DNA of 64,000 nt from the human T2T-CHM13v2.0 reference genome, Homo sapiens. The stretch is from assembly GCF_009914755.1 (NCBI RefSeq), contig NC_060926.1; one strand, written 5' to 3'. The first letter of the stretch is position 1, and the number at the start of each line of letters is the position of its first letter. The notes below the pieces were generated by a model, which worked only from the letters and a program-made list of their open reading frames with translations, was not told the origin of the DNA and searched no databases. The position numbers and the translations under genes are program-made. Shown in pieces: positions 3,598 to 62,966 of the stretch.

Positions 3598-3910
3598 AGC
3601 CAAGTGCGGTGGCTCATGCCTGTAATCCCAGCACTTTGGGAGGCCGAGGCCGGCAGATTGCTTGAGGTCAGGAGTTCAAGACTAGCCTGGCTAACATGGC
3701 AAAACCCCATTTCTACTAAAAATACAAAAAAAAAAACAATTAGCTGGGTATGGCAGTGCACACCTATAGTCCCAGCTACCTGGGAGGCTGAGGCATGAGA
3801 ATCACTTGAGTCTGGGAGGCGGAGGTTGTAGTGAGCTGAGATTGCACCACTGTACTCCACCCTGGGCGACAGAGCAAGACTCCATCTCAAAAAATTTAAA
3901 AAAAATAAAA
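3598..3910 (+). mobile_element. AluS
   Basis: Full dimer with 16-bp TSD taaaacttcataatct (3582-3597, 3906-3921). Confidence 0.95.
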
Positions 3911-4268: not shown

Positions 4269-6000
4269 GAAGCTATAAGCAAACTTACAGCTGATATTAA
4301 AAAGTTCTGAAATACGTTATTCAGCATTTTTGCATACAAAGTATACATAAATTACACATATCAGTATCAACTCTTTTATGTCACTGGGATGCTATTTATT
4401 GCCCTTTGTCCAGAGAAAGTTAGCTGATTATTATGTTAAAGCTGGTTTCTCTGGGAAAGCCTTATTCTAGGGAAAAACATCCTTTCACTGTTCTAAGAAC
4501 AGCGGGATCCTAGAATGCGAATACTTCTGCCTCATAAGAATGCCTGAGCATGCTGTTACAAAAAAAAAAAAAAAAACTTAAAAAAAATTTGGATGATATT
4601 AGATGAACAGCTGTGTAGAAAAGGGGATGTAAAAATAAAAACTGCATGTTAGAGCATCAAAATAGTAACCATGTACAGTATAGGACTGTTTTTAATCAGA
4701 TGAAGATTGAAGCTATTACATTTCAAATCAAATGTTATAAATTAGTTCAAGAATGCAGCTGAGCTCTCATTTAATTAGAAATGTCCATGTTTAAATCATG
4801 AGGTACAGTAGCTGCCAATGAAGCAAAGGGCAAGGGAAGGGAGAAATCCTGTGTCCAGACTCACTGATTCTCAACTGTCTCCTACACAGGATGAACATCT
4901 GGGGTGGACCAGTCCTGATGTAATGAAGAACTTCATGTACTAGCTAATTTGAGATTTAATGTAATTGTCCATAATTGTTTTGAAGACAATTAAAATCATT
5001 ATTCTGGTCTGGACAATTCTGAACTCTTCATTTTTGTGTGGAACATATTTCCCCACCCCCCCATGCTGAATTTTAACTCTTTCTTGGATAAAACGTAAAG
5101 CAAGTCTGGAGCCAAGATTTCCCTTGGATAACCCTTCAACTGTCAGGTCACATAAAATGCAGCATAAGTAGTGAGGTACTCCTTTGGAAGCAAGTCTCAT
5201 TTCCTATTTCTGGTGCTTAATGTAGCTCAGCTAAAGTCCAAATCTACATCCCAAATGTTAGACAATTCACCATTAATTAAAAATGAGGCAACATCATAGA
5301 GGGATTTCTGAGGTCATACAGAAAAGAATGCAATTATCCTAAGGCGGCTTTTTTTCCCCGAAGATTATAAGCCTCTGCATCTTGTAATTAACCGTGGTAC
5401 AGTTAGACAGTCCAGGCAAAAGGTCTTTCTTTTCTCCCAATTTGCCTAATTCAAAAACACCTCAAGTGACATAGCTCAAATTTTTCCAAATTAACCTTAC
5501 CCCTGGGGCTGAAATCATTCAAGTGGCAGTTCAGCTCTAAAGAAAATCTTAGAGTTGTGCACAGGGAAAAAAGGAAAAAAAAAAGTCAAAGGAAAAAGGG
5601 GTAAGAGTTAACATTTAAGTGGATTTTCAACCTCATCATTACCCCTGCTCAAGAAAATAGGACACAGATAGATAGGCAAAACACACCATCATTCTGCCCT
5701 GAAGAGCCTAAAAGACTTACTAGAAACTGCTATTGTTTCCTCAAGATCTACTGTGAATTTGTGAGGGATAAAATTATAGATTTTTTTTTTTTTGCCATAT
5801 CCCACAACATTTAGTGTTCCATAATGTCATGGGGTAGGAAGTGGAGGGGTGTGTCACAAACACACAGTGTATTGTTGATACAGTTCTTCAAGATCAACTT
5901 TTCCCGGGGGCTGAGGAGTGATTTGATTCTCACAAGCTATTTCAGTTTGTAAAAATGGTTTCCAGTAAGAAAGAACACATAACCCCAAACTTTCTCTTAC

Positions 6001-6153
6001 TTCTGGCCACCACTCCACACTATTCCACTGTGACACCAGAGAGAGGGTAAATCGGAATCAAGTCCACTGCTCCCAGGCAAGGGTGGATTCCCTCTTGAAC
6101 TTCCATATCGATAGCCTGGAAGGCCTCTAGGCAGGCAGCCAGAACAGAACTGC
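6001..6153 (-). CDS. FTCDNL1: FTCDNL1 exon (153 nt, phase 1-1) carrying the catalytic-His motif and an in-frame premature TAG at 6022-6020: (G)SSVLAACLEAFQAIDMEVQEGIHPCLGAVDLIPIYPLSGVTVE*CGVVAR
   Basis: ttttgcatttttag|GC AGT TCT ... GTG GAA TAG TGT GGA GTG GTG GCC AGA A|gtaaga. The translation aligns with FTCD [36 protein letters not shown] on both sides of the stop. Confidence 0.9.
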
Positions 6154-7645: not shown

Positions 7646-7843
<198 letters not shown>

Positions 7844-10427: not shown

Positions 10428-10610
<183 letters not shown>

Positions 10611-37112: not shown

Positions 37113-37812
<700 letters not shown>

Positions 37813-38080: not shown

Positions 38081-38148
38081 CACCAGGTTGTAATAGATGT
38101 GGGGGTAGGAGTTCTCTGCTCTAGTTTGCCTTTCTAAAAGATTTAACA

Positions 38149-38587
<439 letters not shown>

Positions 38588-59512: not shown

Positions 59513-60026
59513 CATATAGGAAGCCCCCAAGTTAATTTGCAAGATTTTTCCAAAGAGAAGTTTGTTTAGAACTTGTAATAAAAGTGCCATAAACAGTCTT
59601 ATTTTCCTAGAGTAGACCATAAAGAAGCCATTTAATACATGATGTACTAAGTACCTATCTTTTAACATTGTTTCTAAGAATAAATAAATTCCAATTTTCA
59701 TTTTGGAAGCACATCTCTCCCAATTTTGGCAGTGTGAGAAGGGGCTGTTTATCTTCTAGTAGCATCAGACCCTCTGGTAATATGACAGAACCTCCTGGGA
59801 GAGCTCCTTGGGCAGCAGAGGCTCTCTTGGCAAGATGGCTGTTGCAGATGAGGAGAAAGATGGGTCTTGGTAATTTATACAGTAGAAGAGGAAAGGGCAC
59901 CTCTTTAAACTGGCAAGAGAAAGTAACTATTTAGGTTAATAGGTTTAGAGAGTTTGAGATCTTGAAACATTACTTTGCACCACCACCAAATTATATGCTG
60001 AATTCATTCATAAATAGGGAAACTTG

Positions 60027-60075
60027 GCTGGGCACGGTGGCTCACGCCTGTAATCCCAGCACTTTGGGAGGATCG
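60027..60075 (+). mobile_element. Alu 5' head only (3'-truncated)
   Basis: ggctgggcacggtggctcacgcctgtaatcccagcactttgggagg, then an abrupt switch to L1 sequence. Confidence 0.85.
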
Positions 60076-61962: not shown

Positions 61963-62669
61963 TACAAGCTCTTTTTGAGGATTTTCTTTTTCTTTCTGTT
62001 TTTGGTCTATGCCTAGTGGCATTTCTGAGTTGCTGGCTTCTTCAGCTCCAATTCTGCAATATATGACGCAAAAAGAATACCCAAGGTATCACTACCATTT
62101 TGTTCCTTGAGTCCTGAGGTCCCTAGGTGGTCTGCTTTCTCCTCTCTATCTTTCAGAGTCTTCTTCAGTTTGTTTTATAAATAATGTCCAGGGTTTTTAG
62201 TTGTACTTATCAGGAGGAATACAGAAATTCCTATTTATTCCATCTTCTCACAAGCATTTTATGAACTTCCCTATTTCACTAAGGAGTTCTTCAGTAAGAA
62301 TGCTGATGGTATCAGCTCCTAGTTGTGTATGAAAAGATACAGAAAGAAAGAGACAAGAGTTAAAAATGGCCAGTAGTCAAACCAAATATAAAGGGAGTAT
62401 TAAGGGCCCAGGACTTCTTATGTTGGAAAATAAAACTTTCTATCTCCAGTCTCTCCAATTAAAATATAGCCTGGTAGCCACAGATAAGATCAAGGGTATA
62501 AATACAAGATCCTTCATACAGGTCTTTGAAAGAACTAAAGTATAACTATTAGACCTTATCAGCAGGGCAGAGGGGTTTTGGAATTTTAGGGTCATGGTCT
62601 TACAGAAACCTTTTCCCAAAGTAAAAATCTCTATATACAGAAGTATGCTTTATTATTATTATTTGTTTA

Positions 62670-62966
62670 AGAGATGGGATCTCACTATGTTGCCCAAGCT
62701 GGAATGCAGCGGCTATTCACAGGTGCAATCCCGTTACTGATCAGCACTGGAGTTGTGACCTGCTGTTTCTGACCTGGATTGGTTTACCCCTCCTTAGGCA
62801 ACCTGGTGGTCCTCTGCTCCTTGGAGGTTACCATATTGATGCTGAAGTTAGTGCAGACACAAAATTGACATAGCACATTACAGTCCAGAACTCTTGAACT
62901 CAAGTGATCCTCCTGCCTCAGCATCCAGAGCAGCTGGGACTATAGGCACACACCACCATGTCTGGT
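62670..62966 (-). pseudogene. RN7SL717P: Full-length 7SL (SRP RNA) retro-pseudogene
   Basis: The reverse complement contains the S-domain that Alu lacks (GCACTAACTTCAGCATCAATATGGTAACC...GACCACCAGGTTGCCTAAGGAGGGGTAAACC...GTGCTGATCAGTAACGGGATTGCACCTGTGAATAGCC). It has Alu-domain ends, an (AAT)n tail at 62649-62669 and a degraded TSD. The locus number is recalled from context and not verified. Confidence 0.9.

What the first reader, a model, noticed from the sequence alone, without database searches (positions are those of the whole stretch)
6001..6153. Active-site exon of FTCDNL1 carries an in-frame nonsense codon: an enzyme gene caught mid-pseudogenisation
Seen: a 153-nt exon with clean splice sites (ttttgcatttttag| and |gtaaga) continues the frame of the two upstream coding exons, but codon 115 is TAG (6022-6020; GTG GAA TAG TGT). 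Homology continues past the stop (CGVVAR vs FTCD CVLCAQ). Established: in FTCD the His of HPRMG (His82) is the proposed catalytic residue of the formiminotransferase domain; here it is His94 in IHPCLG. FTCD has DEC at the stop position. Inference: the ancestral codon was GAG (Glu), changed by one G>T. Inclusion gives a 114-aa stub, probably an NMD target if further junctions follow. A functional stand-alone formiminotransferase-like enzyme of unknown substrate may survive in other vertebrates, or in carriers of the GAG allele.
Basis: partly seen in the sequence, partly recalled or inferred. Interest (0 to 1): 0.88.

Follow-up and report, generated by a model that had tools for sequence, protein, structure and literature searches.

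The report
Human FTCDNL1 exon 3 stop codon
The stop codon is real and sits in the third coding exon of FTCDNL1, a formiminotransferase-like gene that is intact in most vertebrates but already broken in humans, and this has been described in print.

Summary
Window 6001-6153 (minus strand) is coding exon 3 of FTCDNL1. It has good splice sites and stays in frame with coding exons 1 and 2. It carries TAG at 6022-6020, which is codon 115. The exon matches Pfam FTCD_N on its own (E 3.4e-15), and the match continues past the stop. Named orthologues (gorilla, bonobo, orangutan and others) have Glu at this position: 96 of 104 listed relatives that contain the exon.

The "mid-pseudogenisation" reading is only partly right, because the decay is further along. 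The segment that forms the second lobe of the fold (final coding exon, 145 aa in orangutan) was not found anywhere in this human genome. The same tool did find exons 1-4. Human also has Lys57 where 116 of 116 relatives have Asn. A Glu allele at codon 115 would therefore not restore an enzyme. Intact proteins of about 328 aa exist from sharks to orangutan.

All the main points are already published (Database 2025, PMC12462614): a human-specific stop in exon 3, the final exon lost in human, chimpanzee and gorilla, and no peptide evidence. Verdict: real, correctly read, already known, low interest.

The parts
6001..6153 (-). FTCDNL1 coding exon 3 (153 nt, phase 1 to 1), encoding codons 72-121 plus split codons. 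It holds the conserved His94.
   Evidence: Splice sites; frame; Pfam FTCD_N E 3.4e-15; 98% identical to gorilla and orangutan proteins, the stop being the only difference.
6020..6022 (-). In-frame TAG, codon 115. Orthologues have Glu here.
   Evidence: Glu in 96 of the 104 listed relatives that have a residue at this position. Glu in gorilla, bonobo, orangutan, siamang and colobus.
6083..6085 (-). CAC, His94, equivalent to His82 of the pig formiminotransferase domain (a proposed base catalyst).
   Evidence: Alignment to 1qd1 and 1tt9. His in 147 of 149 aligned hits. The His82 role comes from a passage in PMC12622545.
7696..7791 (-). FTCDNL1 coding exon 2. It contains Lys57 (AAG, 7738-7736), where all relatives have Asn.
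   Evidence: Asn in 116 of 116 relatives with a residue there. N57K is the only exon-2 difference from gorilla, bonobo and orangutan.
10469..10583 (-). FTCDNL1 coding exon 1 (start codon to the split codon 39). It contains Gly21, where non-African-ape relatives have Arg.
   Evidence: Arg in 109 of 120; Gly only in the 5 gorilla, bonobo and chimpanzee entries, plus one alignment artefact.
4984..6000 (-). Extension of exon 3 used as a terminal exon in some annotated transcripts. The donor is read through; the frame would close 19 codons after codon 121 even without the TAG.
   Evidence: Hub annotation (exon 4984-6153). Read-through translation. A colobus protein model of 140 aa uses the same read-through. 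No canonical AATAAA just upstream of 4984, only AATAAT.

Best explanation
The exon is coding exon 3 of human FTCDNL1 (FONG). The gene descends from an old vertebrate gene for a stand-alone, two-lobed formiminotransferase-like protein of about 328 aa. That gene is now a transcribed unitary pseudogene in humans.

Shown: on the lineage leading to this genome, codon 115 reads TAG where gorilla, bonobo, orangutan and most vertebrates have Glu.

Inferred: the change was GAG to TAG, one G>T on the coding strand (C>A on the plus strand at 6022).

Consequences, computed from coordinates. Transcripts that include exon 3 encode a 114-aa stub that ends about 100 positions into the 176-position N-subdomain. 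If they go on to exon 4 and a further exon, the stop lies 19 nt before the exon 3/4 junction. With the 186 nt of exon 4, that puts it about 205 nt before the next junction, so they are predicted NMD targets. Transcripts that skip exon 3 stay in frame, because 153 nt is 51 codons. They lose His94 and the core of the fold, and they end in non-conserved sequence.

The stop is a late lesion, not the first. The final coding exon, which encodes the second lobe, was not found in this genome. The paper reports it also lost in chimpanzee and gorilla.
For: Exon, frame and stop.

Family: Pfam FTCD_N for each of the three exons, and FTCD structures 1qd1 and 1tt9.

Ancestral Glu:
- 24 of the 26 best library hits have Glu (the other 2 have Gln). 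Among 149 aligned hits, 79 have Glu and 42 Asp.
- In the 120 named or listed relatives the counts are E 96, Q 4, K 2, D 1, H 1, and 16 isoforms without the exon.
- Within exons 1-3, gorilla differs from human only at N57K and E115stop.

Intact relatives:
- 64 of the 120 listed are 300 aa or longer, including orangutan (328 aa), lemurs, many mammals, reptiles, Xenopus and sharks.
- A profile of full-length relatives aligns to pig FT chain residues 2-289, E 3.7e-71.

Missing last exon:
- The whole-genome search with the orangutan protein found exons 1-4 only.
- The 145-aa exon-5 part alone gave 0 matches at E <= 10.
- tblastn with 5 full-length relatives against the 180 kb downstream of the window found only exon 4.

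Exon 4 is 186 nt, open, and identical to bonobo.

Print: PMC12462614 section 21 states the same conclusions and reports no PeptideAtlas evidence.
Against: No ape DNA was available, so the ancestral codon and the branch of the change rest on predicted protein models and on the paper.

I could not check whether the TAG is fixed in humans. One assembly was examined here. That the paper's annotation-based statement rests on a different assembly is my inference.

The absence of exon 5 is 'not found with these queries' in one genome. The positive control is only that the same tool found exons 1-4.

RNA is widely expressed and RefSeq still calls the gene protein-coding. According to the paper, Human Protein Atlas reports antibody signal for the MANE isoform in cell-line vesicles.

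NMD sensitivity was computed from the coordinates only and has not been measured.
Confidence: 0.9

Rival explanations
1. The gene is still functional in humans through exon-3-skipping isoforms. These are the MANE transcript and the 147-aa FONG protein, made from exons 1, 2 and 4 plus a novel tail. They would act as a small non-enzymatic protein, or the locus would act as a regulatory RNA.
For: Skipping exon 3 keeps the frame (153 nt). Exon 4 is open and identical to bonobo. I could derive the 147-aa ORF ending in five Phe from exon 4 read-through, and it matches the length reported in PMC3089633 (passages). Exon-3-less isoforms are modelled in 16 of the 120 listed relatives. The paper mentions antibody signal in vesicles and broad RNA expression. 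Many GWAS papers name the locus (listing).
Against: These products lack His94 and about 51 core residues of the N-subdomain, and all of the second lobe. The tails are non-conserved; one is a poly-T tract read as Phe. There are no peptides in PeptideAtlas, and the paper predicts degradation of the hydrophobic tail. Kou et al. could not demonstrate the protein.
Confidence: 0.07
2. The TAG is an assembly error or a private or rare variant of the sequenced genome, and most humans carry Glu.
For: Only one human assembly was examined here, and no population data were available.
Against: The paper calls the exon-3 stop a feature of human FTCDNL1 and describes isoforms shortened by it. The RefSeq selected transcript in the hub table avoids the exon. 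Even with Glu, exon 5 is not found.
Confidence: 0.02
3. The stop is read through or recoded, so a longer protein is made from exon-3-containing mRNAs.
For: Homology continues in frame after the stop.
Against: Continued homology is expected for a recent nonsense mutation. The codon after the stop is TGT, which is not a read-through context I know of (recalled knowledge). Downstream there is only exon 4 plus non-conserved tails. The paper reports no peptide evidence.
Confidence: 0.01

Closest known systems
Human FTCDNL1 (FONG) as described in 'The state of the human coding gene catalogues' (Database 2025, PMC12462614; preprint PMC11661123 seen in the listing only)
   Same: It is the same object. 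[quoted passage not shown]
   Different: Nothing essential differs.
Formiminotransferase domain of FTCD (pig 1QD1, rat 1TT9/2PFD)
   Same: Intact FTCDNL1 relatives share the N-subdomain (Pfam FTCD_N, full length), the conserved H-P-x-x-G His and a second lobe. The profile aligns to 1qd1 residues 2-289.
   Different: There is no cyclodeaminase domain. The motif is H-P-C in vertebrate FTCDNL1 and H-P-R in FTCD. The second lobe is below Pfam's cut-off for PF02971 (19.1 against 24 bits). No enzymatic activity has been shown. The human copy is truncated.
Human-lineage unitary pseudogenes that are still transcribed, such as GULOP or CASP12 (examples recalled, not tested here)
   Same: A single-copy gene that is intact in relatives is disabled by point and deletion lesions in humans, and the transcripts persist.
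   Different: FTCDNL1 is still annotated as protein-coding in the reference gene sets, and its ancestral function is unknown.

Membership tests
Pfam FTCD_N (PF07837), formiminotransferase N-terminal subdomain | Score above the curated cut-off (27 bits) | tested here: met
   Exon 3 alone scores 56.7 bits, E 3.4e-15. Exons 2 and 1 give 22.7 and 14.5 bits on their own, in colinear profile positions 26-54 and 2-25.
Pfam FTCD_N (PF07837), formiminotransferase N-terminal subdomain | Conserved His of the H-P-x-x-G motif (His82 of pig FT) | tested here: met
   His94 (CAC, 6085-6083) aligns with the FTCD His. His is present in 147 of 149 hits.
Functional formiminotransferase domain (two lobes, as in 1QD1) | Complete N-subdomain in one open frame | tested here: not met
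   The stop at codon 115 ends the frame at about profile position 100 of 176. Isoforms that skip exon 3 lack profile positions 58-106.
Functional formiminotransferase domain (two lobes, as in 1QD1) | C-terminal subdomain (second lobe) encoded at the locus | tested here: not met
   The orangutan exon-5 segment (145 aa) gave 0 matches at E <= 10 in the whole genome. There was no match in the 180 kb downstream. Exons 1-4 were found by the same tool.
Functional formiminotransferase domain (two lobes, as in 1QD1) | Formimino-group transfer to tetrahydrofolate | not testable with these tools
   I found no assay of any FTCDNL1 protein in the papers read.
Unitary pseudogene | Intact orthologues in related species | tested here: met
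   64 of the 120 listed relatives are 300 aa or longer, including orangutan at 328 aa.
Unitary pseudogene | Disabling lesions in the species in question | tested here: met
   TAG at codon 115. Exon 5 not found. Lys at the invariant Asn57.
Unitary pseudogene | No second copy of the gene in the genome | tested here: met
   With the orangutan protein, all 4 matches at E <= 0.01 lie at this one locus. The tool scores only the best candidates, so this is a lower bound.
Unitary pseudogene | No protein product | not testable with these tools
   This rests on the paper's statement about PeptideAtlas.
NMD substrate (50-55 nt rule, recalled) | Stop more than about 55 nt upstream of the last exon-exon junction | tested here: met
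   The stop lies 19 nt before the exon 3 donor. Exon 4 is 186 nt. In transcripts with exon 3, exon 4 and a further exon, the last junction is therefore about 205 nt downstream. This does not hold for transcripts that end in the 4984-6153 exon. Actual decay was not measured.

The most novel reading that the evidence does not exclude
The exon-3-skipping products of African-ape and human FTCDNL1 (exons 1, 2 and 4 plus new tails, such as the 147-aa FONG protein) are translated. They would have taken on a non-enzymatic role that contributes to the bone, schizophrenia or cluster-headache GWAS signals at 2q33.1. In that case the exon-3 stop simply locks in an isoform switch that had already happened.
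Probability: 0.06. Interest if true: 0.5.

Novelty: already known. Interest (0 to 1): 0.12.

Why it matters
For annotation, it is one more case for reclassifying FTCDNL1 as a transcribed unitary pseudogene. GWAS papers that name it as a candidate protein-coding gene should then look to RNA-level or neighbouring-gene effects. The open biological question lies elsewhere: what the intact 328-aa formiminotransferase-like protein does in other vertebrates, and why African apes could lose it. The stop codon itself adds nothing beyond the published account.

Tried and rejected
I went on with single-exon references.

tblastn of six relatives against the window found no exon 4 or exon 5 in the window. 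Other hits were chance-level: for example 37760-37786 at E 2.2, and several Alu-like matches at E > 3.

A weak match in L019 (9835-9921, 38% identity, E 0.03-0.18) to part of exon 4 was judged to be chance.

A six-term literature search with min_terms 2 returned unrelated pseudogene papers. The two-term search 'FTCDNL1' + 'pseudogene' found 4 papers, of which 3 were listed. Only the Database paper and its preprint deal with the gene's coding status.

A first regex tally of residues mis-assigned some positions. It was replaced by a MAFFT-based tally. Two earlier column counts were off by insert columns or by one position and were corrected.

No poly(A) signal of the canonical form was seen at the 4984 end.

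Full report
**Observation.** On the minus strand, window 6153-6001 is a 153-nt exon. Its acceptor is ...ttttgcatttttag and its donor is gtaaga.
- The two annotated coding stretches upstream (10583-10469 and 7791-7696) add up to 211 nt, so the exon is entered in phase 1.
- In that frame the sequence reads GTG GAA TAG TGT. TAG lies at 6022-6020 and is codon 115.
- The His of the I-H-P-C-L-G motif is codon 94, CAC at 6085-6083.

**Homology.**
- Read with X at the stop, the 50-residue exon matches Pfam FTCD_N (PF07837) on its own: E 3.4e-15, 56.7 bits against a cut-off of 27, profile positions 58-106 of 176. The match runs through the stop to the end of the exon.
- Exons 1 and 2 match the colinear positions 2-25 and 26-54.
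- Against solved structures, the exon aligns to pig (1qd1) and rat (1tt9, 2pfd) FTCD. The stop lies opposite the Glu of D-E-C, and the alignment continues to the Cys and beyond.
- The role of pig His82 as the proposed base catalyst is taken from one passage of PMC12622545.

**What relatives have at the stop.**
- A search of 1.84 billion representatives with the exon gave 259 hits at E <= 0.001, 26 of them at E <= 1e-10.
- Of the 150 best hits, 149 could be aligned; a 2448-aa protein could not. At the stop position they have E 79, D 42, Q 10, A 4, N 3, S 3, T 2, H 1, R 1, K 1 and a gap in 3. Among the 26 best, 24 have Glu and 2 have Gln. His94 is His in 147 of 149.
- A second search, with the bonobo-like hit P0006, returned 348 proteins at E <= 1e-10 and listed 120, most of them named by their sources.
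- I aligned the 120 with MAFFT and numbered them on the gorilla protein, which is colinear with human codons 1-121:

| Codon (human state) | Residues in the 120 relatives |
|---|---|
| 115 (TAG) | E 96, Q 4, K 2, D 1, H 1; 16 isoforms lack the exon |
| 57 (Lys) | N 116, gap 4 |
| 94 (His) | H 102; Y 2 (both Hylobates moloch models); gap 16 |
| 101 (Asp) | D 101; V 2 (both Pan paniscus models); N 1; gap 16 |
| 21 (Gly) | R 109, G 6, E 1, K 1, gap 3 |

- Of the six Gly21 entries, five are gorilla, bonobo or chimpanzee. The sixth (P0198) has a non-homologous N-terminus and is an alignment artefact.
- tblastn of named ape proteins against the window shows these differences within the exon bounds:

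| Compared with | Differences from human in exons 1-3 |
|---|---|
| Gorilla | N57K, E115stop |
| Bonobo | N57K, E115stop, plus bonobo's own Val101 |
| Orangutan | I17V, R21G, N57K, E115stop |

- The stop and Lys57 (AAG, 7738-7736) are therefore changes on the human side of these comparisons.
- That the ancestral codon was GAG is an inference, because TAG is one step from GAG. No ape DNA was available.

**The intact gene.**
- 64 of the 120 listed relatives are 300 aa or longer. They include orangutan (328 aa), galago, mouse lemur, many other mammals, turtles, lizards, Xenopus and sharks.
- Full-length relatives carry a complete FTCD_N (positions 2-175 of 176). Their second lobe reaches only 19.1 bits against the 24-bit cut-off of Pfam FTCD (PF02971).
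- The second lobe is nonetheless homologous. A profile of 16 relatives aligns to pig FT residues 2-289 at E 3.7e-71. That alignment includes four H-P-R-type sequences, which probably raise the score. A single lizard protein aligns to residues 2-240 at E 1.1e-17.
- The ancestral product is therefore a stand-alone formiminotransferase-like domain without the cyclodeaminase half. In vertebrates its motif is H-P-C, where FTCD has H-P-R.
- I found no assay of its activity.

**The rest of the human locus.**
- Within the window, only coding exons 1-3 match relatives.
- The whole assembly is held. The orangutan protein matched it in four places, all at this locus: exons 1-3, and exon 4 at chr2:200303187-200303387 (E 1.7e-33). 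Nothing matched residues 187-328.
- The 145-aa exon-5 segment searched alone gave no match at E <= 10; two candidates were scored.
- I fetched the 180 kb downstream of the window and ran tblastn with five full-length relatives and three short isoforms. The hits were:
  - exon 4 (E 1e-32 to 3e-42);
  - the far terminal exon used by the bonobo X3 model (L005 5737-5787, about 174 kb from the window, 17 of 17 residues identical);
  - chance-level matches only.
- Exon 4 is 186 nt with AG and GT boundaries. It is open and identical to bonobo.
- Reading through its donor gives a short tail that ends in five Phe encoded by a poly-T tract, and an ORF of 147 aa. This matches the length of FONG in PMC3089633 (passages) and the five-Phe strand mentioned in PMC12462614.
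- The absence of exon 5 is 'not found with these queries'. The recovery of exons 1-4 serves as the positive control. [quoted passage not shown]

**Consequences.** These are computed, not measured.
- Exon-3-containing mRNAs encode 114 residues.
- If exon 4 and a further exon follow, the stop lies 19 nt before the first junction and about 205 nt before the next. By the 50-55 nt rule (recalled), that predicts NMD.
- Transcripts that end in the extended exon 4984-6153 would escape NMD and encode the stub.
- Skipping exon 3 keeps the frame (51 codons) but removes His94 and profile positions 58-106.
- Exon-3-less isoforms are modelled in 16 of the 120 relatives, so skipping is not obviously a response to the human stop. 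Some of those models may, however, be projections of the human annotation.

**Literature.**
- 'FTCDNL1' occurs in 74 papers of the library; most are GWAS or eQTL reports.
- Section 21 of PMC12462614 (Database 2025), read in full, states the following:
  - FTCDNL1 is an ancient five-exon gene conserved across mammals but patchy in primates.
  - It is clearly non-coding in New World monkeys.
[quoted passage not shown] - Human isoforms are either shortened by that stop or skip exon 3, and there is no PeptideAtlas evidence.
- The preprint version (PMC11661123) was seen only in listings.
- The search 'FTCDNL1' + 'pseudogene' found 4 papers, with 3 listed.
- The finding is therefore already in print.

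**Verdict.**
- It is wrong to call the gene merely half-way lost, and wrong to suggest that a Glu allele could give a working enzyme.
  - the human Lys57 at an invariant Asn;
  - Gly21 shared by African apes;
  - lineage-specific hits at invariant sites in bonobo and gibbon models, in line with the patchy primate conservation the paper reports;
  - a direct check on the T2T assembly that the last exon is not found.
- Not done, for lack of data: population frequency of the stop, DNA-level ape alignment, dN/dS and any expression test.

Noticed in passing
window 7736-7738 (minus strand): Codon 57 of FTCDNL1 is AAG (Lys). All 116 relatives with a residue there have Asn, as do both solved FTCD chains. 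It is a second human-side change at an invariant site and is not mentioned in the paper section I read.
   Followed up: yes
L021 1195-1380 (chr2:200303195-200303380, about 18.7 kb beyond the low end of the window): FTCDNL1 coding exon 4 is 186 nt, open and identical to bonobo. Read-through of its donor runs into a 16-T tract that encodes five Phe and then TAA. This gives the 147-aa 'FONG' ORF.
   Followed up: yes
L005 5737-5787 (chr2:200147737-200147787): A far terminal exon matches the non-conserved tail of the bonobo X3 model at 17 of 17 residues. It is probably the last exon of the selected human transcript, about 174 kb from the window.
   Followed up: partly
proteins P0007/P0252 and P0005/P0006: The Hylobates moloch models have Tyr in place of the conserved His94. 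The Pan paniscus models have Val in place of Asp101, which is Asp in 101 of 104 relatives. This suggests relaxed constraint in several ape lineages.
   Followed up: partly
window 62669-62966 (minus strand): A full-length match to Rfam Metazoa_SRP (299 of 299 positions, 164.6 bits). It corresponds to the annotated 7SL pseudogene RN7SL717P.
   Followed up: no
window 3606-3659, 38145-38210, 60025-60069: Weak tblastn matches (E > 3) to the tails of some predicted primate and bat isoforms. They look like translated Alu sequence (recognised from memory), which suggests those model tails come from exonised repeats.
   Followed up: no
window 4984-5010 (minus strand): The annotated end of the extended exon 4984-6153 has no canonical AATAAA within about 30 nt upstream. 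Only AATAAT is present.
   Followed up: no
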